Shown: positions 1 to 13,540 of the stretch, piece by piece
Position numbering within the stretch: position 1 is the stretch's first letter
How the letters are laid out: every line of letters begins with the position of its first letter
Source of the DNA: Candidatus Bipolaricaulota bacterium
GTDB taxonomy: Bacteria > Bipolaricaulota > Bipolaricaulia > RBG-16-55-9 > DRXL01
Assembly (NCBI GenBank): GCA_025060395.1
Contig: JANXCC010000002.1
Span: 102,234 to 166,233, forward strand
Direction: 5' to 3'
Length of the DNA stretch: 64,000 nucleotides
Position numbers and translations under genes: made by a program
The notes under the pieces: generated by a model
The model's input: the letters and a program-made list of their open reading frames with translations, nothing else
Database searches by the model: none
What the model was told of the DNA's origin: nothing

Positions 1-2
1 TC

Positions 3-1829
3 GAAGGGAACGTCATCACTTCGACAGCCGGGCCGGCGATCCAAAGCTCCGGTGGAGCCGATCTGCGCAATCTGAGGATTCTCAACAACCAATTGAGAAG
101 CACGGTAGCCAACGGGCTGGGCTTCGCGCACGCGGGCGCCCTAGAGAATTCCGTCATCTCCGAGAACATTTTGGAGACCAACGGCAGCGCGGGGATCGGC
201 TTTGGCGGCGCGGTCACTCGTGTCCGACGCCTCTCCATCAGCAACAACCGCATCAACACCAACGCTGCCGACGGGGTTGTCTTTATGAACTCCAGCAGCG
301 TCGAAGAGCTAGAGCTGTCGCGCAACACGATTCGCGGCAACACCGTCGGGGTGCAGTTCAGCAACGCCGGCGGCGTCAGCGAGGTCGAGTTCTCCGGCAA
401 CACGATCTCGGCGAGTACGGCCGGCCCAAACGTGCTCTTTGCCAACAACGGCTTTGTCGAGGACGTCTCGTTTGAAGGGGACGAGCTGAGCAATACGACA
501 GCGATGGGCGCTCCCAGCGTGCTCATTGCGAACACCGGCGTCGCCGAGCGGATTCGGTTCCGCAACGTCTTGATCGAGCGCAATCGCGGGCATGGCATCT
601 GGGTACGGAACGCCGGGCGCTTGCGCGAACTCTCTATTCTCGGCGGGCGCATTCGTAATAACGCCGGGCACAACGTCTTCATCGAGCACAACGCGCCTGG
701 AACAGACTTTGGCGTCTCAGAAGTTCTCTTCGAGGGCGTGACCATCGAGCAAGCCGACGACAACGGGATTCGCATCCTCACCACCACCGCCGAGATCGGC
801 CCGCTGCGCTTCCAGAACGTGCTCTTAGCTAAAAACGGCGCTTTGGGCATTTGTATACGCACCAACACGGGCACGATGGGCGATATTCTCGTCGAAGGCG
901 CAACGATCCGAGAGAGCCAGGGCGTCCCTGGCACCACCGCGTGCGATCTCGCTCCTCAAGCCGAAGGCTCCGGCATCGAAATCCTCACGCTGGGCAACAC
1001 CCCCATCCGCAACATCACGGTGCGCGGCAGCACCTTCACCAACAACGGAGGCTTTGGGCTGCGCCTGCACGCCTTGGGCAACGACCGAGTGACCAATATC
1101 GCGATTCAGAACAATCGTTTTGAGCAGAACGGCACCCGCGCGGCCATCGGCCAAGGCTCCGGCGTCAGCCTGCGCGGCGACATCGTCGAGGAGATCGTCG
1201 TCAATCCCACCGTGGCCAACGACAACAACGATCACGGGATCGAGATCTCCGCGTCGCGCGATATTCTCAACGTCACGATCTCCGGCGGAGAATTCTCCAA
1301 CAACGACCGCAATCGCGACGGCGTCGGCGCGGGGATCTCCGTGAGCGCTAACGAAGATTTATTGGGCTTGCGCATCAGCGACTGCAAGCTCCTGAACAAC
1401 ACCAAGGGCGTGCGCGTCCAGGCCGACATCGCGCGGGATCATCGCGTCACCAACTGCGAGATTGCGAATAACACCCAAGCCGGCGTTGAAGCCTCGATTC
1501 CCAACGGCACGAACCTAGACGCGAGCAACAACTACTGGGGCAGCCCCGATGGGCCGAGCGCGCCCAACGGCTGCGCGGGCCAAGTCGTTTGTACGCCGTT
1601 CTTGACGGCGCCGCCGGCTGGCCCGACACCACCGACACCGCCCACGCCACCGACGCCACCGAGTGGAGACTTTGCTGCGTGTGCCGCGGGTGCCGACAAC
1701 CGAATAGACGACATCGAGATGCTGGGGATCATAGATGCTTGGATCAAAGCACGAGACTATCACGGCTGCGGGGTGCCCACAGACGTGGACGTCCTGCAAG
1801 CGTTGGATCGCTGGATACGCGGCACGTGA
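3..1829 (+). CDS. Secreted right-handed parallel beta-helix repeat protein with Pro/Thr linker and C-terminal dockerin-like tandem repeat; the gene starts outside the window.
   Basis: The frame of ORF 93..1829 is open back to the window edge. It shows repeated N-N-x-I / SGNTI-type beta-helix turns, a PTPPTPPTPPTPP linker at about 1614..1655, and a C-terminal pair of IDAWIK-type repeats at about 1662..1826 shared with 4398..5864. Confidence 0.8.
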   Translation, partial: EGNVITSTAGPAIQSSGGADLRNLRILNNQLRSTVANGLGFAHAGALENSVISENILETNGSAGIGFGGAVTRVRRLSISNNRINTNAADGVVFMNSSSVEELELSRNTIRGNTVGVQFSNAGGVSEVEFSGNTISASTAGPNVLFANNGFVEDVSFEGDELSNTTAMGAPSVLIANTGVAERIRFRNVLIERNRGHGIWVRNAGRLRELSILGGRIRNNAGHNVFIEHNAPGTDFGVSEVLFEGVTIEQADDNGIRILTTTAEIGPLRFQNVLLAKNGALGICIRTNTGTMGDILVEGATIRESQGVPGTTACDLAPQAEGSGIEILTLGNTPIRNITVRGSTFTNNGGFGLRLHALGNDRVTNIAIQNNRFEQNGTRAAIGQGSGVSLRGDIVEEIVVNPTVANDNNDHGIEISASRDILNVTISGGEFSNNDRNRDGVGAGISVSANEDLLGLRISDCKLLNNTKGVRVQADIARDHRVTNCEIANNTQAGVEASIPNGTNLDASNNYWGSPDGPSAPNGCAGQVVCTPFLTAPPAGPTPPTPPTPPTPPSGDFAACAAGADNRIDDIEMLGIIDAWIKARDYHGCGVPTDVDVLQALDRWIRGT

Positions 1830-1951
1830 GAGGGGCGTTTTCCGTGCTTTCTGCGATGCAGAGCATCTGTCCCTTCTTGACGTCTCCGATGTCCCACCCG
1901 CAGAGGGGAGAAGCCCCTGACGCTGTGATCTCCATTACATAAGATAGTAAT

Positions 1952-2338
1952 GTGGGCAAGAAGAGCCAGCCGAAGAAGAAGCGCGCGCCAGGCCTACAGC
2001 AGACACCTTTGCTTGCTGTAGGGCCGGAGCGCATCAGCACGCTCAAAGATTTCTTGCGCTGGCTTGTGCTGCGCGAGCAGCTTGAAATTCAGCAAAATAC
2101 CCCCGAAGCGCAGCGCTTCGCCCATCGCTGGAATATCTTCCCCTACGAAGGCGCAATCTTTGTGGGAATCGTTACAGGGCTCTCAGGACAAGAGATCTTG
2201 AATCGCTTTCCGGAGCTCGATCTGCCCGTGAGCCTGCCCGAAAGCGAAGAACTCCCTGCAGAGCTGCGTGAGCTGCCGTATAAGCCGAATATCTTTTACT
2301 TTGGCCCCTTCAGCCAAGAGTACGACAACCTAGTCTAG
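1952..2338 (+). CDS. Hypothetical protein with a Lys-rich N-terminus and a GTG start.
   Basis: A 128-codon ORF sits in an otherwise empty intergenic gap. No recognisable domain is present and no strong RBS was seen. Confidence 0.3.
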   Translation: MGKKSQPKKKRAPGLQQTPLLAVGPERISTLKDFLRWLVLREQLEIQQNTPEAQRFAHRWNIFPYEGAIFVGIVTGLSGQEILNRFPELDLPVSLPESEELPAELRELPYKPNIFYFGPFSQEYDNLV

Positions 2339-2352
2339 AGGGGTGAGCATCG

Positions 2353-3258
2353 ATGACCAAGAGACGGCTTTTCTCCTTAGCGCTCATAGCATTGCTGGGG
2401 GCTCTGGTGGGCTTTGGCGGGGTGCTGCAGAGCTGCCAGCCTCCCAACAGAGCGCCCCTAGCGCGATTCGTCTTCAGTCCCAAGGAGCCCAAGGTCAACG
2501 AGAGCGTGACGTTCGACGGCTCAGCCTCGTACGATCCCGACGGCAAGATCATTAGCTATTTTTGGGACTTCGGCGACGGCCAGACCGCCCAAGGAGCGAC
2601 GACGACACACGCCTTCAAAAAAGCTGGAGAGTTCGACGTCATCTTGCAAGTGACCGACGACCGTGGGGCGAACACGACATTGGCAAAGACCGTGCGCGTC
2701 GTGCTGCCCAATCAGGCGCCGGTCGCGGTTTTCACCGTCGAGCCGCTGGAGCCCACAGTCAACCAAGAGATCACGTTTGACGCGTCCGTGTCTGCAGACC
2801 CCGATGGAACTATTGTCTCGTACAGCTGGGACTTCGGCGATCAGACGACCGGCCAGGGCAAGATCGTCACGCACACGTATACAGCCGCGGGCACCTACAG
2901 AGTCACGCTCACGGTCACGGACGACAAAGGCGCGACGTCCTCAGCATTTCAGAATCTAGTCATCACAGAGCAGTCATTGCTGCCCAATCAGCCTCCACTC
3001 GTGACGTTCAGCTTCACGCCGGTAAACCCTACAGTTAATCAGCCCGTAGCATTCGACGCCTCGGGTTCGACCGACGACGGCGAGATTATCAGTTATCTCT
3101 GGGACTTCGGCGACGGCCAGACCGGCCAGGGCAAGACCGTCACGCACACGTATAAGACCGCGGGGACGTTTACCGTGAAGCTCACGCTCACCGATGACCG
3201 CGGCGCGAAGAACTCGCTGACTCGCACCATCACGGTCGCCGAAGCCGCAAAGCCATGA
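2353..3258 (+). CDS. Exported PKD-repeat protein with three PKD domains, possibly a lipoprotein.
   Basis: It has a signal peptide and three roughly 85-aa repeats, each with FDxSxSxDPDGxIxSYxWDFGDG...HTY...G.Y.V.L.VTDD. The DNA is repetitive accordingly. Confidence 0.8.
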   Translation: MTKRRLFSLALIALLGALVGFGGVLQSCQPPNRAPLARFVFSPKEPKVNESVTFDGSASYDPDGKIISYFWDFGDGQTAQGATTTHAFKKAGEFDVILQVTDDRGANTTLAKTVRVVLPNQAPVAVFTVEPLEPTVNQEITFDASVSADPDGTIVSYSWDFGDQTTGQGKIVTHTYTAAGTYRVTLTVTDDKGATSSAFQNLVITEQSLLPNQPPLVTFSFTPVNPTVNQPVAFDASGSTDDGEIISYLWDFGDGQTGQGKTVTHTYKTAGTFTVKLTLTDDRGAKNSLTRTITVAEAAKP

Positions 3259-3272
3259 TAGAATAGCCGGGA

Positions 3273-4346
3273 ATGAGCACCAGAGTCCTTTGGGTAGTGC
3301 TAGCGCTGGTGAGCGCTAGCGTCTTGGGTGGAGCAGCGCAGACGACGCTCACGCTCACGGGCGCGCTCCCCTTTGATCTCAGTGGCGTTGGGAAGCCCAG
3401 CCTGGAAGGGAGTTGGCAGTGGCAGCGTGCTCAGTGGACGGTCAGCGCGAGCGCCACGCTCACCCCCACGAGCGTCGAGGGCGCCAAACTCAGCCTGAGC
3501 TATCAGATCTCGCGGCTGCAAGCGAGCGCGACCGCGACGCTCTCTCCTCAAGGGCTGACGAGCGCCGAGGCCAAGCTCAAGGCTGAACTCCCCAGCTTGA
3601 TCGCGGCAGAAAACACGCTGAGCTTTGGGAGGCGCGGCTTCAAAGGCGGAAAAATCGCGATCAAGCTCGGCCCCAGTGCCCTCAACGTCACGGGCAGTGC
3701 CCAGCTCACTCCCGAAGGGATCACGGCTCCTACAGGGACTCTGAACTTCTCGCTCTCCCGAGCGCGCGGCGAGCTCAGCGGGACGACGACGTTCTCGGCA
3801 CAGGGATTCAAGCACCAGTCGCTCTCCATCGTGGGGCATCTTAGCGACGATTGGACTCTTACAATGACGTCGCTCATCACACCAGCGGGGTTTCACTCGG
3901 AGACGTTCGAGCTGGCGACGACCCTGTGTGATGGACTGCTCTCGCTCTCGTTCAATGCCACGGTTGAGGGCCGCGGGATCACCAGCGAGAGCCTCTCGCT
4001 CGATCTGAGGCTCGAGGGACTCTTCGTCCAAGCTTCGATAGAGTTCTCAGGACTGGAGCTGAGCAGCTTGCAGCTTATGGCCAACGGCTTTCTCGGCGAT
4101 TTCTCGGTCGATGCGCTTCTCAGGGGCAGCTTTGAAGGCATTCAGTTCGCTACGCTCACGGCAAGCGGAGAGCTGTTCGGCTTCAGCGTGAGCGCCAGCG
4201 TCGATATAAGTATCTTTGGGCTAGATAATCTCTCGCTCAGTCTCAGCCGTGCTCTCGGGCGCTGGACGTTCAGCGCCGAGGGCAGCTTCGGCAGCGATGG
4301 CTTCCACGGCGGCACGCTCAAAGTAAGCTATAGCCTCAAGATTTGA
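3273..4346 (+). CDS. Secreted beta-rich protein, a candidate outer-membrane beta-barrel.
   Basis: It has a signal peptide and a Ser/Thr/Leu/Gly-rich alternating pattern. The C-terminus ...KVSYSLKI has alternating hydrophobics, resembling a beta-signal. There is no homology anchor. Confidence 0.65.
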   Translation: MSTRVLWVVLALVSASVLGGAAQTTLTLTGALPFDLSGVGKPSLEGSWQWQRAQWTVSASATLTPTSVEGAKLSLSYQISRLQASATATLSPQGLTSAEAKLKAELPSLIAAENTLSFGRRGFKGGKIAIKLGPSALNVTGSAQLTPEGITAPTGTLNFSLSRARGELSGTTTFSAQGFKHQSLSIVGHLSDDWTLTMTSLITPAGFHSETFELATTLCDGLLSLSFNATVEGRGITSESLSLDLRLEGLFVQASIEFSGLELSSLQLMANGFLGDFSVDALLRGSFEGIQFATLTASGELFGFSVSASVDISIFGLDNLSLSLSRALGRWTFSAEGSFGSDGFHGGTLKVSYSLKI

Positions 4347-4397
4347 CAGCCTTCCCCGCATAGCATAAGATAGAACTCAGCGCTCACAGGGAGGCTT

Positions 4398-5864
4398 ATG
4401 ATCTCTATGCGTTACGCCATAATTGTGCTTAGTCTTTTGTTCAGCGTAGGTTTTGTTGGCTCTCAGCTTGGCTACGCGCAGACGATCTCGATCGAGAGCG
4501 ACCAGCTCTCGCTAGGAGCGGCGGTCTGGCTGCCTATTGCGATCAACGCTGCTCCTGATGGGATACATCGTTACGTCCTCAGCGTCGTGGTTGATGTCCC
4601 TGAGATCGCGCACATTGAGGACGTGCGCTTCCCTGAACCAGTGCGGGATTTTGCGAGCTTTCAAATCGCTCCCGATGGTAACTCCGTGCAGATCGCGGTG
4701 CGCGACGAGAACGACGTGATCACCTCTGGGGCGCAGCAGACCCTTCTAGCTGAAGTGAAGCTGCGCGGGACGTTCGGTGGCCGCACAGGGGTTACGCTCG
4801 CTGTCCGCGAGATCGTCAATGATCGCTTGAACGCTTTTAACGTTGCGGTCGCGAACGGGCAGCTCACCGTGGCAGCCGCGCCGAGCGCCCCGACGCTCGT
4901 CGTCGGCTTCGATGGCGTCTTAGTGGGCGACACGGTGCGGGTGCCGATTATCCTCACGAGCACGGTTGGAGGTGTGCAGAGCTATCGTGCGCGGGTACGC
5001 CTAGAACGGCGCGACGTCGCAACGTTCATCGGGGCGGAGTTCCCCTTCTTCGCTGATCAGCAAGACGTCTCGATCACGCCCGATGGCAATGAAATCACCG
5101 TAGGCGCGCGCGATGGGGTCAACGCCGTCCAAGCTGGGGCCAAAGGGATACTCTTGGCGTGGCTGGTCCTGCGCGGCGATCTCCCCGATGGTAGCCCGCT
5201 GCGCCTGCTCAGCAACAATATCACTGAAGATAATAACAACAGCGGGCCGCTGCCGAGCAAGGATGGGCTGTTGACAGTCATTCGCTTAGAAAATTTGCCC
5301 CCGGAATTCTTCGGGCCGCAGCCGCGTCCCCAAGAGATCCTCGGAGATCGCTCGCCATCGATTCAGATCACGATCAGCGACGACAAGAACGCGGTGCTCT
5401 CCGAGACGATTCAGCTAACTCTCCAAGACGAAGTCCAGACATTACAATTTGGCTGGCGGAGCCCTGGGGCCTCGTGGGATCCGACGGCGCGTCTCTTTAC
5501 GGTCAATCTCAAGGCGATTGGAGTACAGCTCAGCGGCGATGTGCGGGCGCGCATCCGGGCGCGCGACCGCCAGGGCGCTGAAGGGCGCTTCGAATGGCGC
5601 TTCACCGTCCCACGGGGCGAGATGCCGCCTCCGCCCCCAGGAAAGACTCTCGAAGATCTCCTTGATGCAGACAGAGATAATCGTCTGAACGATCTTGAAA
5701 TCCTGAGAGCATTAGATGCGTGGATCAAGGGAGCGGAGCTCGCCCCTGGGCTCAAGATCGACGACCTGAAGATGCTCGCGCTCATCGACGCGTGGATCAA
5801 GGGCACCCCACTGCGTCCAACAGCACCCTTGATCGTTCAGGAAACGCTCCCTGTGCCCTTCTAA
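4398..5864 (+). CDS. Secreted scaffoldin-like protein with two tandem cohesin-like beta-sandwich modules and a C-terminal dockerin-like tandem repeat.
   Basis: It has a signal peptide and two internal roughly 130-aa repeats (about 4485..4877 and 4884..5273). These carry motifs such as VGDTVRVPIIL...GGVQSY, resembling the cohesin V-P-V...G-I strands. The C-terminal segment at 5646..5813 is DADRDNRLNDLEILRALDAWIKG followed by IDDLKMLALIDAWIKG. Confidence 0.75.
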   Translation: MISMRYAIIVLSLLFSVGFVGSQLGYAQTISIESDQLSLGAAVWLPIAINAAPDGIHRYVLSVVVDVPEIAHIEDVRFPEPVRDFASFQIAPDGNSVQIAVRDENDVITSGAQQTLLAEVKLRGTFGGRTGVTLAVREIVNDRLNAFNVAVANGQLTVAAAPSAPTLVVGFDGVLVGDTVRVPIILTSTVGGVQSYRARVRLERRDVATFIGAEFPFFADQQDVSITPDGNEITVGARDGVNAVQAGAKGILLAWLVLRGDLPDGSPLRLLSNNITEDNNNSGPLPSKDGLLTVIRLENLPPEFFGPQPRPQEILGDRSPSIQITISDDKNAVLSETIQLTLQDEVQTLQFGWRSPGASWDPTARLFTVNLKAIGVQLSGDVRARIRARDRQGAEGRFEWRFTVPRGEMPPPPPGKTLEDLLDADRDNRLNDLEILRALDAWIKGAELAPGLKIDDLKMLALIDAWIKGTPLRPTAPLIVQETLPVPF

Positions 5865-5915
5865 GGGATTTGCCTTGAGGCCCCTGCAAGGAGTATTATC
5901 ACAGCAGGGGTCTCT

Positions 5916-7547
5916 ATGAGAGTTCTTGTGCTGTGCGGGCTGCTCTTGGTAGGAACGGGGGGCTGTGCCCCACCACCCAATCAGCCGCCTATCGCGGCGA
6001 TCACGGCCGCGCCCATCAGCGGCGGCGTGCCCTTGACGGTGCAGTTCGACGGTTCTGGATCGCGCGATCCCGACGGAAAAATTATTGAGTACTCCTGGGA
6101 TTTTGGCGATGGCACTACAGCTTTTGGAGCGAAAGTCTCGCATACTTACACGCAGGCCGGGCTCTACCCCGTCATTCTCACGGTTAAGGACGACCGCGGC
6201 TCGACCGCCGTCGCCACGGTCATCATCAAAGTCGGCAACCCGCCTCCTACAGCGACCTTTACCGCATCGGTGACTAATGGCTTTGCTCCGCTCACCGTTA
6301 CGTTTGACGCTTCAGCGTCGAGCGATCCGGCATCGCGCTGGGCGCCGCAGCGCATCGTGCGTCACGAGTGGGACTTCGGTGACGGCACGGGCGCTATCGG
6401 CTCGCAAGTCTCGCACACCTACACGCGCGCTGGCGTCTATACTGTTACCCTGCGGGTCTTTGACGAGGACGGCGCAAGCGACCGCGCGCAGCAGACTATC
6501 CGTGTCTTGGACTTCTCGTTCCCACTCTCGCTCCCTGTGGGGCTCGGCCCGACGGCATTAGCGGTGGGAGACTTCGACGCTAACGGGCTCGACGACATCG
6601 CTGTCGCCAACTTCGAGAGCAGATCTGTTACCGTGGTGCTGAGCCGCGACGCCGGGGATTTTCGCATTCAAACGCCGCTTCTACTCACGTATCGTCCGAC
6701 CTCCCTGGTTGGTGGCGATTTCAACCAGGACAGAAAGCTCGATCTGATCGTGACGAACTTCGACGAAGGGCGTCTGTCCCTCTTCCAGGGTGACGGCACA
6801 GGACAGCTTACAGCCGTGCGAGAGATCATTGTCGGCGCCGGGCCGTATGCGCTCATCGGAGAGGATTTCAACGGCGATCGGATCCTTGATATAGCCGTTG
6901 CCAACGCGACGCTCGGACGCGTGACGACGCTGCTAGGGGATGGCACAGGAGACTTCTCCAAGGCTCAGGAGATCACGGTGGGCGGTTGGCCTAGTGCCCT
7001 GGCTCCTGGGGATTTCGACGAAGACGATCGCCTGGATCTCGCCGTGGTGAACTTCTTCGACGATACTGTGACGGTTCTCTTGGGCAACGGCGATGGGACT
7101 TTTGACGCCTTGATGCCCTTTCCCGCAGGCAAGGAGCCAATCGGCATAGCTGAGGGCGATCTTAACGGTGACGGCTTTGCTGATCTCGCTATTGCCGCTT
7201 CGGAGGAGAACTCGTTGAAGCTCTTCTTCGGACAAGGGACGGGGCGCTTTCGCGAGGGGCCAACGCTCTTTGTCGGCCCGGAGCCCCGTGCCGTCGATTT
7301 GGCCGATCTCGATCGCGATGGCGCTCTCGATCTCATCGCGGCGAGCATCCAGAGCAACGAGCTGAAGATCGTTCTTGGCCGAGGCGACGGCTCTTTTGGG
7401 ATGAGCAAGATCTGGCCTGTAGGCGCCGGACCTATAGCGATTGCCACGGGGCGCTTTGTAAGAAGCGAATTTGAAGATATAGCTATCGCGCAGTTCATCA
7501 GCGGGCGCCTGGCTATTCTGCTCAACGAGATGGCACGCTCCCCTTAA
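5916..7547 (+). CDS. Lipoprotein with two PKD domains followed by a seven-bladed FG-GAP (integrin-alpha-like) beta-propeller.
   Basis: It has a signal peptide with a Cys lipobox-like site. Two PKD repeats carry the WDFGDG...HTY motif. Seven repeats of GDF[DN]xDGxxD[LI]A[VI]xN follow. Confidence 0.85.
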   Translation: MRVLVLCGLLLVGTGGCAPPPNQPPIAAITAAPISGGVPLTVQFDGSGSRDPDGKIIEYSWDFGDGTTAFGAKVSHTYTQAGLYPVILTVKDDRGSTAVATVIIKVGNPPPTATFTASVTNGFAPLTVTFDASASSDPASRWAPQRIVRHEWDFGDGTGAIGSQVSHTYTRAGVYTVTLRVFDEDGASDRAQQTIRVLDFSFPLSLPVGLGPTALAVGDFDANGLDDIAVANFESRSVTVVLSRDAGDFRIQTPLLLTYRPTSLVGGDFNQDRKLDLIVTNFDEGRLSLFQGDGTGQLTAVREIIVGAGPYALIGEDFNGDRILDIAVANATLGRVTTLLGDGTGDFSKAQEITVGGWPSALAPGDFDEDDRLDLAVVNFFDDTVTVLLGNGDGTFDALMPFPAGKEPIGIAEGDLNGDGFADLAIAASEENSLKLFFGQGTGRFREGPTLFVGPEPRAVDLADLDRDGALDLIAASIQSNELKIVLGRGDGSFGMSKIWPVGAGPIAIATGRFVRSEFEDIAIAQFISGRLAILLNEMARSP

Positions 7548-7592
7548 AGGGCTATTGCATCCAACGAAATTTTTCGCTATCGTAGGAGTACC

Positions 7593-9701
7593 ATGCAGAA
7601 AGCTCATCTGCTCGTTGCATTGGGCGTTCTTGGGGCTTTCTTGATTGGATCAGCTCACTCGAGCTTATCTGGCGATTGGCCCGCCCCGCCAAAGCCCTCA
7701 GTCTATCATCCGAAGGTCGAGACTGCACTACTGTTAGGAAGTGCGCGAGTTAGCGGGTTGATGGGGTCAGACCCCCGGCACCTTACTGAACTGGTGAACT
7801 ACACGGTGATTCTTGAGAGTGAGCGCCCTCTGGACGAAGCGCTCTTAGCGCGCTTTGGCGCTCATCTCGAATCCCAAGCGGGAAATCTCTATCGCGTGCG
7901 CGTTCCTCGGGAGAACCTTCGGGCGCTCGTTGAGGGCGTGCCGGGGATCTCGTTCGTTCGCCGTCCGCGAACCCTGATCGCTTTGGGCTCACGGGCGAGC
8001 GAAGGGGTCGTGCCCACGGGAGCACTCCTGTTGCAAGGTTCTGGCTTTCGCGGCCAGAACGTTAAGATCGCTGTGATAGATCTGGGGTTCGCGCAGCTGA
8101 GCCGCGCTAAGAAGTCTCAAGTGATCAATCCCGACGTTATCGTGGACGAGCACGACTACACCGACACCGGCTTGGAGACGGGAACTGCTCACGGCACAGG
8201 CGTCGCCGAGATCATTCACACCATGGCGCCCCAGGCTTGGCTCTATCTCAAGAAGATCGCTGATGAGATTGATCTGGCTAATGCGGTTGAGGACGCCATC
8301 GCCCAGGGCGTGCAGATCATTAACTATTCCGTGGGGGTAGCTAACGCGAACTTCGGCGACGGTACGGGCTTTGTCGCCGAGCTTGCCGATCGAGCGCGCG
8401 CTCACGGGATCTTCTGGGTCAATGCCGCAGGCAATCACGCCCAGAGCCATTGGATGGGCCTTTTCAGCGATAGAGACTATGATGGCTGGCTCGAATTCGC
8501 CCCCGGCAGAGAAGAGCTCCTCGTAAAAGCTGACTTCCCCGGCTCGATTGAGTTATATTTGACGTGGGATGACTGGCCGCGCACCGCCCAAGACTTCGAT
8601 CTCTTTCTCTATGACGCCCACGGGCGTCTGGTCGCAAGCTCCCAGAACTATCAGCTGGGCTACGAAGAACCAACTGAACAGATCGAATACATAGCGTGGG
8701 CACCGGGGACGTATCGCGTGCGGGTGCTCGCCCGACACGTTTCCAAAACCCCCATCCGAGTGAAGCTCTTCAATCTCAGCCAACAGACCCTCGATCCGTA
8801 TGTCCCTGAGGGGAGCATTCTCACGCCTGCCGACGCACGCGGGGCCTTTGCCGTGGGAGCGATCAACGTACGCCATTGGAAGACCGGCCCCCAGGAGCCG
8901 TTCAGCTCCCAAGGGCCAACGAGCGATGGGCGCATCAAGCCTGATATCATGGGCCCAGACGGCGTCTCGAGCTTTGCGCTCACGTACTTTTCGGGGACGT
9001 CCGCGTCGGCACCCCATGTCGCCGGAGCTGCGGCGCTCCTGCTCTCACAGCATCCAGCGTGGACCGCTGATCAGCTCCAAAGCACCCTGGAAGCCCAAGC
9101 GATCGATATGGGCATCCCGGGGAAAGATACTATATACGGTGCGGGCAGGCTCGACCTCTCGCTCGGGCTGGTCCAAGCGCGGCGCACGATCTCCCCTCAA
9201 AAAGCACGACCCGGCGATCTCGTCACGGTGACTATCGTAGCGACGATGCCGCTGGGGATGTTTGGGGGTCTGGAGCTGCGCGACATGCCCCCGTGGGCTG
9301 TGGCTCCTCTCTCGTTTACGTGGCCGATTGTGCATCCTGGGGAGACAAGATCGTTCACCTATGAGCTTCGGGTGCCGCAGACGGCTCGGCCTGGGGTCTA
9401 TCGCTGGTCGGGCACAGTCAATAATATTGCGCTCACGGGTGACGATACGATCACGGTAGAGCATCCCCGGGCAAGACTTGTGGATCGGCGAGGCGCCTTG
9501 CGCGTGCCATTCTCGCAATCTGTTGAGATGGCTCGACTGCGCATCTACGATCTGAAAGGGTCTCTGCTCTTTGAAGGCCTCAGCCCAAAAGCCCTCGACT
9601 GGCGTCCCAGCGCTAACGGCGTCTATCTCTATGTTCTTGAGATAGTGCAAGACGGACGGGTCATTGAGCGAAAGCTTGGCAAATGGGTTGTTCTCGAATA
9701 G
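7593..9701 (+). CDS. Secreted subtilisin-like serine peptidase (S8 family) with a C-terminal Por/T9SS-type sorting-domain-like module.
   Basis: It has a signal peptide and the catalytic triad motifs IAVIDLGF (Asp), HGTGVAEI (His) and GTSASAPHVAGAAAL (Ser). The last roughly 75 aa (LRIYDLKGSLL...GVYLYVLEIV...KLGKWVVLE) fit the FlgD-Ig/Por_Secre_tail pattern. Confidence 0.9.
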   Translation: MQKAHLLVALGVLGAFLIGSAHSSLSGDWPAPPKPSVYHPKVETALLLGSARVSGLMGSDPRHLTELVNYTVILESERPLDEALLARFGAHLESQAGNLYRVRVPRENLRALVEGVPGISFVRRPRTLIALGSRASEGVVPTGALLLQGSGFRGQNVKIAVIDLGFAQLSRAKKSQVINPDVIVDEHDYTDTGLETGTAHGTGVAEIIHTMAPQAWLYLKKIADEIDLANAVEDAIAQGVQIINYSVGVANANFGDGTGFVAELADRARAHGIFWVNAAGNHAQSHWMGLFSDRDYDGWLEFAPGREELLVKADFPGSIELYLTWDDWPRTAQDFDLFLYDAHGRLVASSQNYQLGYEEPTEQIEYIAWAPGTYRVRVLARHVSKTPIRVKLFNLSQQTLDPYVPEGSILTPADARGAFAVGAINVRHWKTGPQEPFSSQGPTSDGRIKPDIMGPDGVSSFALTYFSGTSASAPHVAGAAALLLSQHPAWTADQLQSTLEAQAIDMGIPGKDTIYGAGRLDLSLGLVQARRTISPQKARPGDLVTVTIVATMPLGMFGGLELRDMPPWAVAPLSFTWPIVHPGETRSFTYELRVPQTARPGVYRWSGTVNNIALTGDDTITVEHPRARLVDRRGALRVPFSQSVEMARLRIYDLKGSLLFEGLSPKALDWRPSANGVYLYVLEIVQDGRVIERKLGKWVVLE

Positions 9702-9704
9702 ACT

Positions 9705-10523
9705 ATGACGATCCCAGAGCTTCAGCGGAAGGCCAAGGAGCTGCGGCGTATGGTCTTAGAGATGGTAGCGCAGGCGGGCTCGGGGCATCCTGGGGGAGCG
9801 CTCAGCTCGGCTGACCTGCTCACGGTGCTCTATTATAAATATCTGCGCGTGCGGCCGGAGGAGCCGCGCTGGCCTGAGCGTGATCGCTTCGTGCTCAGCA
9901 ATGGCCATGTCTGTCCCATACTCTATGCGATCTTGGCTGATCGGGGCTTCTTTCCCAAGGAAGAGCTCAAGCATCTCCGAAAGCTCGGCTCGATTCTTCA
10001 GGGCCATCCCAGCTTGGCGTTCAAGACCCCGGGGATAGAGCATTCGGGAGGCTCGTTGGGATTGGGGCTGTCGGTATCGGTGGGTATGGCGTTGGCGGCC
10101 AAGCTCGAGAGGAAAGACTATAAAATTTACTGTCTCATCAGCGACGGCGAATGCCAAGAGGGTCAGACGTGGGAGGCCGCGATGGCCGCTGCCCACTACC
10201 AATTAGACAATCTCTGTGCGATGCTCGACCGGAATTTTACCCAGATCGATGGGCGCACCGAAGAGATCATGAAGATCGAGCCCATCGCTGAGAGATGGCG
10301 CACGTTCGGCTGGAATACTCTCGAGATTGACGGACACAACTACGAGCAGATTATCTCAGCGTTCGAGCAGTTCTTAAAAAACCAGGGCACAGGGCGCCCG
10401 ACGATGATCGTCGCTCGGACTGTGATTGGAAAAGGCGTCTCGTTCATGGAAGGGGACTATCACTGGCATCACGGTGCGCCCACGCCCCAGCAGCTTGAGC
10501 AAGCTCTCACAGAGTTGGTTTAA
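9705..10523 (+). CDS. Transketolase N-terminal (thiamine-diphosphate-binding) subunit, lacking an adjacent C-terminal subunit.
   Basis: GSGHPGGALSSADLL, GHxCPILYA and ISDGECQEG are transketolase N-terminal hallmarks. It is 272 aa, which is split-subunit size. The next gene is convergent. Confidence 0.88.
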   Translation: MTIPELQRKAKELRRMVLEMVAQAGSGHPGGALSSADLLTVLYYKYLRVRPEEPRWPERDRFVLSNGHVCPILYAILADRGFFPKEELKHLRKLGSILQGHPSLAFKTPGIEHSGGSLGLGLSVSVGMALAAKLERKDYKIYCLISDGECQEGQTWEAAMAAAHYQLDNLCAMLDRNFTQIDGRTEEIMKIEPIAERWRTFGWNTLEIDGHNYEQIISAFEQFLKNQGTGRPTMIVARTVIGKGVSFMEGDYHWHHGAPTPQQLEQALTELV

Positions 10524-10524
10524 G

Positions 10525-11871
10525 TTATCTGCGGCTGATCATACAAACCCCTGGCCCTGTGATGATCTCAAAGCTTCCCGCAGTGTCTTGGACAGTTACG
10601 ATAGTATTGCGAAAACGTCCAAGTACCAATTCAGGGAATTCCCCGATGAGGATCACCCTTCCCGTCTCATTGTGCGCTTGGGTGCAGATGATCATCTCGG
10701 AGTCGTCGCCGGCATCGCCAGCCCGCACAATGAACGTATCGTTCCCGCCACCACCAATGAGAACATCTGAATCTAAGCCACCATCAATGATATCGTTGCC
10801 GGTGCCACCGTCGAGGGTATCATTGCCCTCGTTGCCCCGCAGCATATCGTTGCCAGAACCGCCGTACAGCTCGTCATCGTCCGCTCCACCAAGGAGAACA
10901 TCCCGGCCAAAGCCGCCTTGCAACAGGTCATCCCCCTTATTGCCCTCGAGATGATCGTTGCCAGTGCCCCCGTCAATGACGTCATTGTCATCCTCACCAT
11001 AGAGGGTGTCGTTCCCCGATTCGCCGTAGATGGTGTCATTACCTTTTCTCCCGTAGATAGTATCCCGGCCGGTAGTGCGCCAGCCGCCAAAACCGTCATC
11101 ACCGTAGATTTGGTCATCGTCATCACTGCCTATAATGAAGTCGTTTCCACACCGCGATGACGAACAGGCATTAGGCCCATCATCAGATACGCCGTTGCCG
11201 TCACCACGAATGATCGGTTCTTCGCATCTCTGAATGATATTGTCTTGCGAAGTTCCTTCACACCCCTCGGGGGGGAGAGTGGGGCGTGCCGTAAACGTGG
11301 CCGTGACGGACTTGTTGGCGTCCATAGTGACCGTGCAGGTGCCCCGACCACTGCAAGCTCCGCTCCAGCCTCTGAAAGTTGAGCCGGAGTCCGCAGTAGC
11401 TGTCAAAGTGACGGTAGTGGGAGGAGTAGTGGCAGCATAGCTCGCTGTGCACGCAGTGCCGCAATTGATCTTTCCGTCATTGCTGGTTACGGTGCCGCTG
11501 CCGGTGCCAGCTTTGGTCACGGTGAGAGTAAAGGCTCGCGTGAAAGTTGCGGTGACTGACTTGTTAGCATTCATAACGACCGTACAGGTAAGGGCTGTAC
11601 CGCTGCAGTCTCCGCCCCAACCCCCGAAGGTTGACCCTGGACTGGGTGTCGCCGTCAGCGTCACTGTGGTATTGAGGGAGAATTGGGCCGAGCAGGCGGT
11701 GCCACAGTTGATCCCCGCGGGGCTGCTGGTGACTGTGCCACTTCCTGTGCCGGTCTTCGTCACCGTCAGCGTAACGAGCACTTGAGAGACCACTGAGCTA
11801 GTGTTGAGCAAGAGAGCCAGTGCCGTACATCCAACCAGTACCCAGAGCCTCCTCCAATATCTAGCTGCCAT
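10525..11871 (-). CDS. Secreted calcium-binding protein with two divergent InlB-type B-repeats followed by RTX (hemolysin-type GGxGxDxUx) repeats.
   Basis: A signal peptide is present and the RBS is GGAGG. Two roughly 80-aa repeats (GSGTVTS..INCGTAC...TLTAT...GW.G.CSG) are followed by at least ten nonapeptide GxGNDxL/I repeats. Confidence 0.85.
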   Translation of the reverse strand: MAARYWRRLWVLVGCTALALLLNTSSVVSQVLVTLTVTKTGTGSGTVTSSPAGINCGTACSAQFSLNTTVTLTATPSPGSTFGGWGGDCSGTALTCTVVMNANKSVTATFTRAFTLTVTKAGTGSGTVTSNDGKINCGTACTASYAATTPPTTVTLTATADSGSTFRGWSGACSGRGTCTVTMDANKSVTATFTARPTLPPEGCEGTSQDNIIQRCEEPIIRGDGNGVSDDGPNACSSSRCGNDFIIGSDDDDQIYGDDGFGGWRTTGRDTIYGRKGNDTIYGESGNDTLYGEDDNDVIDGGTGNDHLEGNKGDDLLQGGFGRDVLLGGADDDELYGGSGNDMLRGNEGNDTLDGGTGNDIIDGGLDSDVLIGGGGNDTFIVRAGDAGDDSEMIICTQAHNETGRVILIGEFPELVLGRFRNTIVTVQDTAGSFEIITGPGVCMISRR

Positions 11872-12271: not shown

Positions 12272-13540
12272 ATGCACCTGACACGACGCGCGTTCCTTCG
12301 TGCGGCTGCTGGAACAATCTACACGCTGACCATAAGCTGGGCTGCGCAAGCACAGGCCCAGACAAGCGATTGGCCCATGTTCCGCCGCGATCTCTTCCGT
12401 ACGGGGCGAGCCGTCAAAACGAGCAAGATAACGCTTCCCAAGGAGCGCTGGAGCGCCTTCACGCGCGGCTTAGTCGAATCATCGGCAGCCGTAGGCGATA
12501 TCGATGGCGATAGCATTATAGAAGTCGTCGTCGGCTCGTATGATGGGGGACTCTATGCCTATCAAGGGCGCACGGGCATTCTCAAATGGCGCTATGAAAC
12601 AAAAGGCTGGGTCTACTCCTCCCCAGCGATCGCCGATGCCGACGGTGACGGACGCCTCGAAGTTGCCGTCGGTTCCCAAGACAAGAGCTTTGCGCTGGTG
12701 GACGGGCGCACCGGGCGACCCAAATGGTCTTTTCTCACCGGAGACGGCATTCTCTCTTCGCCCGCGATCGCTGACATCGACGGGGATGGAAGATCTGAAG
12801 TCGTTGTAGGATCGGAGCGCGTCTATGCGTTTGACGGGCGTACCGGCTCGGTGAGATGGAAGTTCTTACCCGAGTTTCCTGCGCGCTCCTCGCCCGCTAT
12901 CGCAGATATAGACGGCGACGGCAAACTCGAGATCGTTATCGGTTCGTTGGACGGGAGGCTCTACGCGCTGGACGGGCGCACGGGTGTGGCTCAGTGGGCC
13001 TTCGACACCGGTGGTCCTGTCGAGTCGTCCCCAGCGATTGGGGATCTCGATGGCGACGGCACACTCGAGGTCACGGTGGGCTCGAGCAAGCGCGGCGTCT
13101 TTTGTGTCGATGGGCGCAGGGGGCGACTCCGATGGTTCTTTGAGGCCAGCCGCGAGCGTATCCCCTCGTCCCCAGCAATTGGAGATCTCGACGGCGATGG
13201 GAAGCTCGAAGTCGCCATCGGAACTAACGATCATCGAGTGCTCTCCTTAGGAGGCTCAGATGGCAAGCTGAAATGGAGCTTTCTCACCAACGATCTTGTC
13301 GAGTCCTCCCCAGCGATCGCCGACATTGACGGCGATGGGAGGCTTGAAGTCTTGGTCGGCTCGCATGATGGCCATCTCTATTGTTTGGATGGGCGCACCG
13401 GGGCGCGCAAGTGGGCCTATCGTCCTAAGGCTGCCGCGCAGTTCTTCTCGTCGCCGACGCTCGCCGATCTTGACGGCGATGGGCTTTTAGAGATTATCAT
13501 CGGGAACAACAACAGCGGGCTTTATGTCCTAGGCGCCTGA
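12272..13540 (+). CDS. Tat-exported PQQ-like / FG-GAP beta-propeller repeat protein.
   Basis: It has a twin-arginine signal (RRAFLRAAAG). About eight repeats each carry G.L.A.DGRTG..KW plus IADIDGDG..E..VGS. Confidence 0.8.
   Translation: MHLTRRAFLRAAAGTIYTLTISWAAQAQAQTSDWPMFRRDLFRTGRAVKTSKITLPKERWSAFTRGLVESSAAVGDIDGDSIIEVVVGSYDGGLYAYQGRTGILKWRYETKGWVYSSPAIADADGDGRLEVAVGSQDKSFALVDGRTGRPKWSFLTGDGILSSPAIADIDGDGRSEVVVGSERVYAFDGRTGSVRWKFLPEFPARSSPAIADIDGDGKLEIVIGSLDGRLYALDGRTGVAQWAFDTGGPVESSPAIGDLDGDGTLEVTVGSSKRGVFCVDGRRGRLRWFFEASRERIPSSPAIGDLDGDGKLEVAIGTNDHRVLSLGGSDGKLKWSFLTNDLVESSPAIADIDGDGRLEVLVGSHDGHLYCLDGRTGARKWAYRPKAAAQFFSSPTLADLDGDGLLEIIIGNNNSGLYVLGA

What the first reader, a model, noticed from the sequence alone, without database searches (positions are those of the whole stretch)
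1..9701. Candidate cohesin/dockerin-type cell-surface assembly in a high-GC, probably diderm, bacterium
Seven consecutive same-strand genes all encode exported proteins:
- a parallel beta-helix protein with a Pro/Thr linker;
- a PKD-repeat lipoprotein;
- a beta-rich protein with a C-terminal beta-signal-like ending;
- a protein with two cohesin-like modules;
- a PKD + FG-GAP propeller lipoprotein;
- a subtilisin.

The beta-helix protein and the cohesin-like protein end in the same distinctive two-repeat module. That is the architecture of dockerin-borne enzymes plus an adaptor scaffoldin. Together the locus reads like a compact cellulosome-like or adhesin-like extracellular complex. I do not recognise it as a described system.
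Basis: partly seen in the sequence, partly recalled or inferred. Interest (0 to 1): 0.82.

Follow-up and report, generated by a model that had tools for sequence, protein, structure and literature searches.

The report
Divergent cohesin scaffold with dockerin-like tails
A conserved gene cluster in an uncultured Bipolaricaulota bacterium encodes a secreted protein with two very divergent cohesin modules. That protein and a neighbouring beta-helix protein both end in an uncatalogued calcium-loop repeat module placed where a dockerin would sit, which suggests, but does not prove, a non-cellulosomal protein-docking system on the cell surface.

Summary
The observation largely holds. Seven + strand genes lie at 1-9701. 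Six are exported; g2 is not. g1 (beta-helix) and g5 share a two-repeat C-terminal module (40% identity over 47 aa, E=5e-8).

**Cohesin: supported.** No Pfam, NCBIfam or PDB sequence hit is found directly. A profile of the two paralogous g5 modules finds 1548 relatives, many carrying Pfam Dockerin_1 or Cohesin domains. A deeper profile hits solved cohesins (5lxv 8.8e-6, CipA Coh9 1e-3).

**Dockerin: analogue, not member.** The tail ("W module") occupies the dockerin position. It has two 24-residue repeats, one EF-hand calcium loop, and a modular spread on beta-helix proteins, an astacin and PKD proteins (at least 13 copies in one genome). It fails every dockerin sequence test, matches only EF-hands weakly, and its fold similarity to dockerins is non-significant.

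No glycoside hydrolase or CBM is present, so this is not a cellulosome.

The cassette g2-g7 is syntenic across Bipolaricaulota, and beta-helix-W plus Coh-Coh-X-W proteins are also adjacent in an unrelated genome.

Binding is untested. I rate it a new variant of non-cellulosomal cohesin/dockerin-like systems, of moderate interest.

The parts
1..1829 (+). g1: exported right-handed beta-helix (CASH/NosD-like) protein. Its N-terminus lies off the window; orthologues are about 746 aa with a signal peptide.
   Evidence: Pfam Beta_helix 1.8e-24; translation; full-length orthologues with signal peptide.
1611..1661 (+). Pro/Thr-rich linker of g1 (PPAGPTPPTPPTPPTPP).
   Evidence: Read directly from the translation.
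1686..1826 (+). W module of g1. It has two repeats (DDIEMLGIIDAWIKA / TDVDVLQALDRWIRG). Its Ca-loop ligands are degenerate and a conserved Cys pair is present.
   Evidence: BLASTP to the g5 tail 40%/47 aa, E=5e-8; profile A9 E=3.6e-16; alignment A9.
1952..2338 (+). g2: conserved 128-aa protein with a basic N-terminus, no signal peptide and no known family.
   Evidence: No Pfam, NCBIfam or PDB hit; syntenic orthologues at 58-92% identity.
2353..3258 (+). g3: exported protein with 3 PKD domains and a conserved Cys after the signal peptide (probable lipoprotein, atypical lipobox).
   Evidence: PKD_4 2.5e-75; conserved GGVL(Q/E)(S/R)C.
3273..4346 (+). g4: exported all-beta protein, a candidate outer-membrane beta-barrel.
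   Evidence: Amphipathic dyad pattern throughout and a beta-signal-like C-terminus. 7 of 13 orthologues give sub-threshold PelB C-terminal barrel hits, best 1.2e-4. The family is restricted to Bipolaricaulota. The fold was not predicted.
4398..5864 (+). g5: adaptor-like protein with the order signal peptide - cohesin M1 - cohesin M2 - Ig-like M3 - Pro linker - W module - short C-terminal extension.
   Evidence: 25 orthologues at 62-100% identity, all Bipolaricaulota; AF2 model; module evidence is given in the entries below.
4479..4877 (+). Cohesin-like module M1 (g5 residues 28-160).
   Evidence: A4/A8 profiles; solved cohesins hit at 8.8e-6 and 1e-3; predicted beta-sandwich; Foldseek lists cohesins 4ums and 4dh2 with TM 0.53-0.54.
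4878..5291 (+). Cohesin-like module M2 (residues 161-298), a paralogue of M1.
   Evidence: About 28% identity to M1. Its five best non-orthologous BLAST hits are the second modules of W-tailed proteins.
5292..5621 (+). Ig-like module M3 (residues 299-408), in the position of a scaffoldin X module.
   Evidence: AF2 beta-sandwich with pLDDT 70-87; conserved in P0034/36/37/38/45/87/90; sub-threshold Big_5/HYR hits in relative P0036.
5646..5807 (+). W module of g5 (residues 417-470): short helix, EF-hand loop DADRDNRLNDLE, helix ILRALDAWIKG, degenerate loop, helix MLALIDAWIKG.
   Evidence: AF2 pLDDT 89.3, pTM 0.74; alignment A9; weak EF-hand hits only; dockerins appear among the few non-significant fold hits.
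5808..5861 (+). C-terminal extension of g5, ending in a conserved P-x-P-[YF].
   Evidence: Alignment A1; function unknown.
5916..7547 (+). g6: lipoprotein with 2 PKD domains and a seven-repeat FG-GAP beta-propeller.
   Evidence: PKD_4 4.7e-46 and FG-GAP_3 1.1e-41 in 7 stretches; conserved lipobox Cys.
7593..9701 (+). g7: exported subtilisin (S8) with an insert and C-terminal CARDB/NPCBM_assoc-like and Por_Secre_tail/CHU_C-like domains.
   Evidence: Peptidase_S8 3.8e-28 and sub-threshold C-terminal hits. D/H/S motifs are read in the sequence. The C-terminus is shared with other W-module proteins.

Best explanation
The locus is a conserved Bipolaricaulota envelope cassette built around g5, a secreted adaptor-type protein.

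g5 carries two highly divergent cohesin modules (M1, M2), an Ig-like spacer (M3) and a C-terminal 'W module'. The W module is about 55 residues long and EF-hand-derived. It consists of two 24-residue loop-helix repeats, each ending in W-I-x-G. The first loop is a 12-residue calcium-binding loop. The module sits where related Coh-Coh-X proteins carry a canonical dockerin.

The same module ends the neighbouring beta-helix protein g1. In related genomes it also ends at least two further exported proteins.

The most likely mechanism (inferred, not shown) is that W modules dock onto the M1/M2 cohesin faces. Calcium would stabilise g5-type modules and a disulfide would stabilise g1-type modules. Docking would tether beta-helix (carbohydrate-binding or carbohydrate-cleaving type) proteins, and possibly other g5 molecules, into a surface assembly.

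The co-conserved PKD and FG-GAP lipoproteins g3 and g6, and the candidate outer-membrane barrel g4, would provide the envelope anchorage. The S8 protease g7 would process or accompany the complex.

It is a non-cellulosomal cohesin-based docking system, not a cellulosome.
For: **Shown**
- Cohesin homology of M1/M2: with fold-level support.
- The tail is shared by g1 and g5.
- The W module is a confidently folding unit: helix, loop, helix, beta-turn, helix, pLDDT 89.
- Positional equivalence to a dockerin. 59 of the 174 held proteins (mostly cohesin-profile relatives) carry canonical DxNxNGxxDxxD loops, mostly as a C-terminal pair, and 18 of 82 scanned relatives hit Dockerin_1. The closest relatives of g5 (P0034, P0036, P0037, P0038, P0045, P0087, P0090) all carry W tails after Coh(-Coh)-X.
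- Dockerin-like modularity. The W module occurs at N- or C-termini behind Pro-rich linkers on beta-helix proteins, an astacin, and PKD or DUF11 proteins. One 3.2-Mb contig has at least 13 W modules and also encodes one Coh-Coh-X-W protein.
- Conserved partnership. beta-helix-W and Coh-Coh-X-W genes are adjacent both in Bipolaricaulota and in the distant L032 genome.
- Cassette g2-g7 is syntenic in 13 loci.
- Other W proteins exist in Bipolaricaulota. L027 lies next to a g1 orthologue, L040 is on the same contig as L002, and L026 is a further type.
- Three of the six Foldseek PDB hits for the tail are dockerins; 2ccl_B has TM 0.48/0.51 over 61 columns.

**Inferred**
- The binding itself, the calcium dependence, and the roles of g3, g4, g6 and g7.
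Against: - No test of physical interaction was possible.
- The W module fails all sequence tests for dockerin: Pfam none; hhalign against 20 dockerins from the same protein family gives probability 3%; the profile against PDB returns only EF-hand proteins.
- Only one of the two loops keeps its calcium ligands, and the g1 tail has lost most of them.
- The correlation between g5-type cohesins and W tails may simply reflect orthology of the whole protein.
- The full-length g5 model is only moderate (pLDDT 62.7).
- g1 is not adjacent to the cassette in every genome.
Confidence: 0.55

Rival explanations
1. The W module is a general cell-envelope or ligand-anchoring domain. It would be a calcium- or disulfide-stabilised EF-hand derivative that binds S-layer, outer-membrane glycan, peptidoglycan or a polysaccharide. 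It would be unrelated to the cohesin modules. g5 would then be one more anchored surface protein whose cohesin modules bind something else.
For: - The W module matches only EF-hands, not dockerins.
- It occurs at N-termini, at C-termini, and internally before Por_Secre_tail-like domains.
- It is present in many copies per genome against a single Coh-Coh-X-W protein seen.
- Fold hits are non-specific.
Against: - The module sits exactly where canonical dockerins sit in homologous Coh-Coh-X proteins.
- The nearest relatives of the g5 cohesins all carry it.
- beta-helix-W and Coh-Coh-X-W genes are adjacent in distant lineages.
- A many-dockerins-to-few-cohesins ratio is normal for scaffoldin systems (own knowledge).
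Confidence: 0.25
2. g5-type proteins self-assemble. The W tail of one molecule would bind a cohesin of the next. Because each molecule has two cohesins and one tail, this would build chains or a lattice, forming a matrix, sheath or S-layer-associated network. g1 would be a minor decoration.
For: - Cohesin and dockerin-position module are always on the same polypeptide in this family.
- A hexagonal S-layer on a toga-like sheath is reported for the cultured Bipolaricaulota strain.
- The g5 and g1 tails differ (40% identity), as do M1 and M2 (28%), which allows separate specificities.
Against: - No evidence of abundance or lattice formation.
- The architecture equally fits an adaptor scaffoldin.
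- This is a special case of the best explanation rather than a true alternative.
Confidence: 0.12
3. There is no complex. The region would simply be an island of independently acting secreted or surface proteins (adhesins, a protease), and the shared tail would be a stabilising or secretion-related appendage.
For: - Surface-protein genes continue beyond the cassette: an RTX/Flg_new_2 protein and an FG-GAP/PQQ propeller.
- Toxin-antitoxin genes can be inserted between g1 and g2.
- g1 is not always adjacent.
Against: - Gene order g2-g7 is strict, with 3-51 bp gaps, across 62-100% identity orthologues.
- Cohesin modules are dedicated protein-protein interaction modules in every characterised case (own knowledge).
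- The beta-helix-W / Coh-Coh-X-W adjacency recurs in a distant genome.
Confidence: 0.08

Closest known systems
Non-cellulosomal cohesin- and dockerin-like modules of archaea and non-cellulolytic bacteria (Peer et al. 2009, FEMS Microbiol Lett 291:1, cited in PMC8542988; for example the archaeal-type Coh-Coh-Doc proteins found, and PDB 2xdh 'cohesin')
   Same: - Signal peptide followed by one or more cohesin modules and a C-terminal Ca-loop repeat module on the same polypeptide.
- No link to cellulose degradation.
- The g5 modules belong to the same sequence family as these proteins.
   Different: - The C-terminal module is not a Pfam dockerin. Its repeats are 24 residues apart, not about 32.
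- Only one calcium loop is retained.
- It has a preceding short helix, as in a true EF-hand.
- It has invariant Trp-[IV]-x-Gly helix ends.
Clostridial cellulosome scaffoldins, in particular the CipA Coh9-X-DocII segment (PDB 3kcp, 4fl4)
   Same: - Domain order cohesin, Ig-like X module, C-terminal two-repeat module.
- 3kcp/4fl4 are the best cohesin-containing Foldseek hits of the full g5 model (about 350 columns).
- CipA Coh9 aligns over its full length to the module profile (E=1e-3).
   Different: - No CBM, no glycoside hydrolases and no SLH anchor.
- Two rather than nine cohesins.
- The host is a Gram-negative-type, deep-branching phylum.
- The cargo is beta-helix proteins and possibly proteases.
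Inferred cellulosome-like complex of Ca. Stygibacter (Cloacimonadota), PMC8542988
   Same: - An uncultured diderm lineage with cohesin scaffold and module-tagged enzymes inferred from a MAG.
- An S8 peptidase is part of the system.
- A T9SS-type C-terminal domain is present on some components.
   Different: - There the domains are canonical Pfam cohesin and dockerin, and the scaffold is 3755 aa with CBMs.
- Here both partners escape Pfam, and the S8 protease g7 carries no W module.
EF-hand pair (Pfam EF-hand_7 and relatives)
   Same: - Repeat 1 is helix, 12-residue DxDxDxxxxxxE loop, helix.
- All 22 PDB profile hits are EF-hand proteins (best 2.3e-3).
- Pfam EF-hand hits are sub-threshold (5e-4 to 6e-3).
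   Different: - The second site is degenerate and lacks an entering helix.
- The module is extracellular and is appended to exported enzymes behind Pro linkers.
- Some variants have a conserved Cys pair where calcium ligands are lost.

Membership tests
Cohesin (Pfam PF00963) | Direct match of the module to the family's sequence model | tested here: not met
   No PF00963 hit for g5 or its isolated modules, even at E<=10. phmmer against PDB finds nothing.
Cohesin (Pfam PF00963) | Homology to bona fide cohesins demonstrable through profiles or intermediates | tested here: met
   - Profile A8 (window M1/M2 plus 40 relatives): 13 of 14 PDB hits at E<=1 are cohesins (5lxv 8.8e-6; 3kcp CipA Coh9 1e-3, full length; 2xdh 6.7e-3).
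- 6 of 82 relatives hit PF00963, best 2e-9.
- P0038 M1 gives a full-length sub-threshold hit.
Cohesin (Pfam PF00963) | Beta-sandwich of about 140 residues (nine-strand jelly roll) | tested here: inconclusive
   The AF2 model shows beta-sandwiches of the right size but with pLDDT 40-83. Foldseek lists cohesins (4fl4 5.9e-8; 4ums and 4dh2 TM 0.53-0.54) among many generic Ig-like arrays.
Cohesin (Pfam PF00963) | Binds a dockerin-type partner | not testable with these tools
   No multimer prediction or experiment was available.
Dockerin (Pfam PF00404) | Match to the dockerin sequence model or profile | tested here: not met
   - No Dockerin_1 hit for window tails or for six other W modules at E<=1-10.
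- hhalign of A7 against 20 canonical dockerins: probability 3%, 16 columns.
- Profile A9 against PDB: no dockerin among 22 hits.
Dockerin (Pfam PF00404) | Two tandem segments of about 22 residues, each a calcium loop plus helix (F-hand) | tested here: not met
   Two 24-residue loop-helix repeats are present. Only the first loop has EF-hand ligands (DADRDNRLNDLE). The second (ELAPGLKIDDLK) does not, and the g1 tail has lost most ligands in both.
Dockerin (Pfam PF00404) | Three-dimensional similarity to solved dockerins | tested here: inconclusive
Dockerin (Pfam PF00404) | Modular appendage of diverse exported proteins, and C-terminal to cohesins in adaptor scaffoldins | tested here: met
   The W module occurs on beta-helix proteins, an astacin and PKD/DUF11 proteins, at N- or C-termini behind Pro linkers. 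It occupies the dockerin position in Coh-Coh-X proteins.
Cellulosome | Module-tagged glycoside hydrolases plus a CBM-bearing scaffoldin | tested here: not met
   No GH or CBM domain is found in g1-g7 or in the W-module proteins scanned.
EF-hand | Helix, 12-residue loop with ligands at positions 1, 3, 5 and 12, helix | tested here: inconclusive
   The pattern is present in repeat 1. All PDB profile hits are EF-hands, best E=2.3e-3. Pfam EF-hand models stay below their cut-offs.
Outer-membrane beta-barrel (g4) | Amphipathic beta-strands throughout and a C-terminal beta-signal | tested here: inconclusive
   The dyad hydrophobicity pattern and the ending are compatible. Only sub-threshold PelB barrel hits are found. 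No PDB sequence hit.

The most novel reading that the evidence does not exclude
The W module would be a previously unrecognised class of dockerin. It would be an EF-hand-derived, single-calcium or disulfide-stabilised two-repeat module with invariant Trp. It would specifically bind the g5-type divergent cohesins. Together they would define a widespread non-cellulosomal surface-assembly system in uncultured, mostly diderm bacteria, including deep-branching Bipolaricaulota. That system would display beta-helix proteins and proteases on the outer sheath.
Probability: 0.4. Interest if true: 0.7.

Novelty: new variant of a known kind. Interest (0 to 1): 0.55.

Why it matters
Cohesin-dockerin pairs are among the strongest known protein-protein interactions. 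They are the basis of cellulosomes and of many synthetic-biology scaffolds.

A cohesin family invisible to Pfam would extend the system's known range and repertoire. So would its pairing with an uncatalogued dockerin-position module that is widespread in uncultured bacteria. The pair would supply orthogonal, probably thermostable, docking parts.

It would also give a first molecular handle on how the unusual toga-like envelope of Bipolaricaulota is decorated. If binding fails, the W module is still an undescribed extracellular EF-hand-derived domain family that deserves a Pfam entry.

Tried and rejected
- Direct Pfam, NCBIfam and PDB sequence searches of g5 and its pieces found nothing.
- A word-indexed search of the 5.8-billion-protein set with the tail profile returned only one fragment, P0027. 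It did not even recover the g5 family, so it says nothing about distribution.
I replaced it with a hand-made degenerate DNA pattern.
- hhalign of W modules against canonical dockerins gave no support.
A 17-sequence alignment was used instead.
- g4: the homologue search gave only unannotated Bipolaricaulota orthologues, and the profile against PDB gave nothing.
- g2: no hit anywhere.
- The promoter/terminator scan was uninformative.
- Peer et al. 2009 is not held in the paper library.
- Rejected ideas: a true cellulosome (no GH or CBM), and an SLH-type anchor (no similarity seen by eye and no Pfam hit).

Full report
**What is in the sequence**

Window 1-9701 carries seven + strand ORFs separated by 3-122 bp.
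- g1 (<1-1829) is a right-handed beta-helix protein (Pfam Beta_helix 1.8e-24). It has a PPAGPTPPTPPTPPTPP linker and a C-terminal tail.
- g2 (1952-2338) has no family hit and no signal peptide.
- g3 (2353-3258) has three PKD domains.
- g4 (3273-4346) is an all-beta protein with no family.
- g5 (4398-5864) has no Pfam, NCBIfam or PDB sequence hit.
- g6 (5916-7547) has two PKD domains and seven FG-GAP repeats.
- g7 (7593-9701) is an S8 peptidase.

GC is 59-62% here.

The g1 and g5 tails align at 40% identity over 47 residues (E=5e-8). They are the only such modules in the 64 kb window, by regex and by a profile HMM run without filters. g5 is 100% identical to a hypothetical protein of a Candidatus Bipolaricaulota MAG.

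g2 is not an exported protein. g1 is cut by the window edge, although its orthologues carry a signal peptide.

**Conservation and synteny**

g5 has 25 orthologues at 62-100% identity, all from Bipolaricaulota-type MAGs and metagenomes. Some of the related genome records are labelled Fraserbacteria or Thermotogae.

The order g2-g3-g4-g5-g6-g7-transketolase N subunit is kept in every locus long enough to show it (L001-L013).

g1 is usually directly upstream. In L002 it is separated from the cassette by HicAB/Uma2 genes, and in L003 it is not adjacent at all. The conserved core is therefore g2-g7, and g1 is a frequent neighbour.

**Are the g5 modules cohesins?**

Residues 28-160 (M1) and 161-298 (M2) are paralogues of each other (about 28% identity).

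A profile of both modules, run against 1.84 billion representative proteins, found 1548 proteins at E<=1e-3 and 743 at E<=1e-10. I scanned 82 of the top hits with Pfam. Eighteen carry Dockerin_1 (best 4.8e-19), six carry Cohesin PF00963 (best 2e-9), and five carry EF-hand_7.

Of the 174 proteins held at that point, mostly these relatives, 59 carry canonical DxNxNGxxDxxD loops. Most have two loops about 32 residues apart at the C-terminus, after the modules.

A 42-sequence profile seeded with the window's M1 and M2 then hit solved cohesins. Thirteen of the 14 PDB hits at E<=1 are cohesins: ScaC cohesin 5lxv at 8.8e-6, CipA Coh9 (3kcp/4fl4) at 1e-3 aligned end to end, 2xdh at 6.7e-3, and 6kgc at 8e-3.

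The AF2 model of g5 is only moderate (pLDDT 62.7) but shows three beta-sandwiches followed by a helical tail. Foldseek lists cohesin-containing chains among many generic Ig arrays. These include the Coh9-X-DocII segment of CipA over about 350 columns.

I conclude that M1 and M2 are genuine, very divergent cohesins. M3 occupies the place of a scaffoldin X module.

**Is the tail a dockerin?**

By position and logic, yes. By family membership, no.

The closest non-orthologous relatives of g5's modules are P0034, P0036, P0037, P0038, P0045, P0087 and P0090. They share the Coh(-Coh)-X architecture and the same kind of tail. More distant relatives carry canonical archaeal-type dockerins at that position.

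The tail, which I call the W module, has the consensus I..ALD.N.N..LDD.EIL.AI..WI.G..VPGTG..I.D..IL.LI..WI.G. It consists of two 24-residue repeats with invariant D/E/W and D/W.

Repeat 1 contains a 12-residue EF-hand loop, preceded by a short helix: DADRDNRLNDLE in g5 and DQNKNGFLDDLE in L015. Repeat 2 has no calcium ligands. In g1-type and some other variants the ligands are lost and a conserved Cys pair appears.

Tests for dockerin membership failed:
- No Pfam Dockerin_1 hit.
- hhalign against 20 dockerins taken from the same cohesin-bearing family gives probability 3% over 16 loop columns.
- A 36-sequence profile against PDB returns 22 hits, all EF-hand proteins (best 2.3e-3) and no dockerin.
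- NCBIfam has nothing.

The W module is therefore an uncatalogued EF-hand-derived module in the dockerin position. Common descent with dockerins is possible but not shown.

**Distribution of the W module**

A scan of GTDB genomes found it in 14 loci:
- ten of g5 type;
- three of g1 type;
- L015, where a NosD-like beta-helix protein carries it at the N-terminus, right after the signal peptide and before a poly-Pro linker. A g1-type protein is encoded next to it.

A degenerate DNA pattern scan of metagenome contigs gave 55 loci. Translation shows bona fide two-repeat modules in most of them. Their hosts include:
- beta-helix proteins (L018, L025, L027, L043, L056);
- an astacin metalloprotease (L062; Pfam Astacin 1.7e-47);
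- PKD- or DUF11-rich proteins and TIG proteins.

In several proteins the module is followed by NPCBM_assoc and CHU_C/Por_Secre_tail-like domains.

One 3.2-Mb contig carries at least 13 W modules and one Coh-Coh-X-W protein. There the gene order is CARDB-W-NPCBM-CHU_C protein, 980-aa beta-helix-W protein, a 173-aa beta-rich exported protein, then Coh-Coh-X-W. This mirrors the g1/g4/g5 arrangement in a distant lineage.

Bipolaricaulota themselves encode further W proteins. One is a protein of about 1400 aa (beta-helix, W module, NPCBM-like and CHU_C-like domains), found two genes upstream of a g1 orthologue in L027 and on the same contig as L002 in L040. Another type is seen in L026.

The rest of this particular genome could not be searched.

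**The other genes**

- g4 orthologues are confined to Bipolaricaulota and unannotated. The alternating hydrophobicity, the ...Y-S-x-K-[ILF] ending and the sub-threshold PelB barrel hits (7 of 13 members, best 1.2e-4) fit an outer-membrane barrel but do not prove one.
- g3 and g6 keep a Cys after the signal peptide.
- g7 has the Asp, His and Ser motifs of an active subtilisin. It shares its C-terminal domains with W proteins but has no W module itself.
- The cultured Bipolaricaulota strain is described as Gram-negative with an outer toga-like sheath bearing a hexagonal S-layer. An outer-membrane-anchored assembly is therefore plausible.

**Mechanism and rivals**

The best-supported reading is a non-cellulosomal cohesin docking system. 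W modules on g1, and on other exported proteins, would dock on M1 or M2 of g5. g5's own W module would attach it to another cohesin, either on another g5 molecule or on an unidentified anchor. g3, g4 and g6 would be envelope partners, and g7 an associated protease.

What is shown: cohesin homology, the module anatomy, positional equivalence, modular spread and conserved gene partnerships. What is inferred: the binding, its calcium dependence and the roles of the neighbours.

The main rival is that the W module anchors proteins to some other envelope component, with g5 being just one more anchored protein. The lack of dockerin homology and the many-to-one copy ratio allow this. The strict Coh-X-W coupling and the recurring gene adjacency argue against it.

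No GH or CBM is present, so 'cellulosome-like' holds only in the architectural sense.

**Comparison with the known, and verdict**

Non-cellulosomal cohesin and dockerin modules are a recognised class (Peer et al. 2009, as cited in PMC8542988). Cellulosome-like complexes have been inferred from MAGs of other diderm candidate phyla using canonical Pfam domains. I found no paper linking Bipolaricaulota or Acetothermia with cohesins or dockerins.

Two things are new here. The cohesin subfamily escapes the curated models. Its dockerin-position partner is a distinct, widespread and undescribed module.

I class the finding as a new variant of a known kind, with moderate interest (0.55). My confidence that the modules are cohesins is about 0.9. 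My confidence in the docking mechanism is 0.55.

Noticed in passing
window 5808-5861 (g5 residues 471-488): After the W module, g5 orthologues keep a short extension that ends in a conserved P-x-P-[YF] at the extreme C-terminus (for example LPVPF, YPVPY). It may be a sorting or processing signal.
   Followed up: no
window 1668-1826; P0036/P0045; L027 3157-7482: W-module variants that have lost the EF-hand calcium ligands carry a conserved Cys pair instead (g1 'FAACAAG...GCGVP', 'SDC...RVC', 'AACLPF...VPGC'). This suggests a disulfide replaces calcium.
   Followed up: partly
window 9300-9701 (g7 C-terminus); L027, L032 11-1183, L053, P0034: A CARDB/NPCBM_assoc-like plus CHU_C/Por_Secre_tail-like C-terminal unit ends the S8 protease. 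In other proteins it follows the W module (CHU_C 1.9e-6 in L032). It is a T9SS-type sorting-domain look-alike, and T9SS is not, to my knowledge, reported from this phylum.
   Followed up: partly
window 10525-11871 (-): An exported protein with two Flg_new_2 (InlB B-repeat-like) domains and RTX calcium-binding repeats (HemolysinCabind 4e-38). Paralogues lie directly upstream of g1 orthologues in L002, L014, L016 and L027, so the surface-protein island probably continues beyond the left edge of the window.
   Followed up: partly
window 12272-13540 (+): A 422-aa FG-GAP/PQQ-like beta-propeller protein whose N-terminus looks to me like a twin-arginine signal (RRAFLRAAAG). It is another envelope protein near the cassette.
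   Followed up: no
window 9705-10523 (+): The gene for the N-terminal subunit of a split transketolase starts 3 bp after g7. It is syntenic with the cassette in all loci, and no C-terminal subunit gene lies next to it.
   Followed up: no
window 1952-2338 (+): g2 is a conserved 122-128-aa protein with a variable Lys/Arg-rich N-terminus and an invariant ISTLKD(F/L)LRWLV motif. It has no signal peptide and no family, and it is always the first gene of the cassette. It could be a regulator or chaperone.
   Followed up: partly
L002 6313-7439: HicB/HicA toxin-antitoxin genes and a Uma2 endonuclease gene are inserted between the g1 and g2 orthologues. A second HicAB pair follows the transketolase gene.
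   Followed up: no
P0044 (428 aa, metagenome): Two g5-like cohesin modules run straight into a prolipoprotein diacylglyceryl transferase (Pfam LGT 3.2e-31 within set A5). This is either an assembly or frameshift chimera or a real fusion.
   Followed up: no
L032 4631-5152: In a distant genome, a 173-aa exported beta-rich protein lies between the beta-helix-W gene and the Coh-Coh-X-W gene, in the position g4 holds here. It has no Pfam hit.
   Followed up: no
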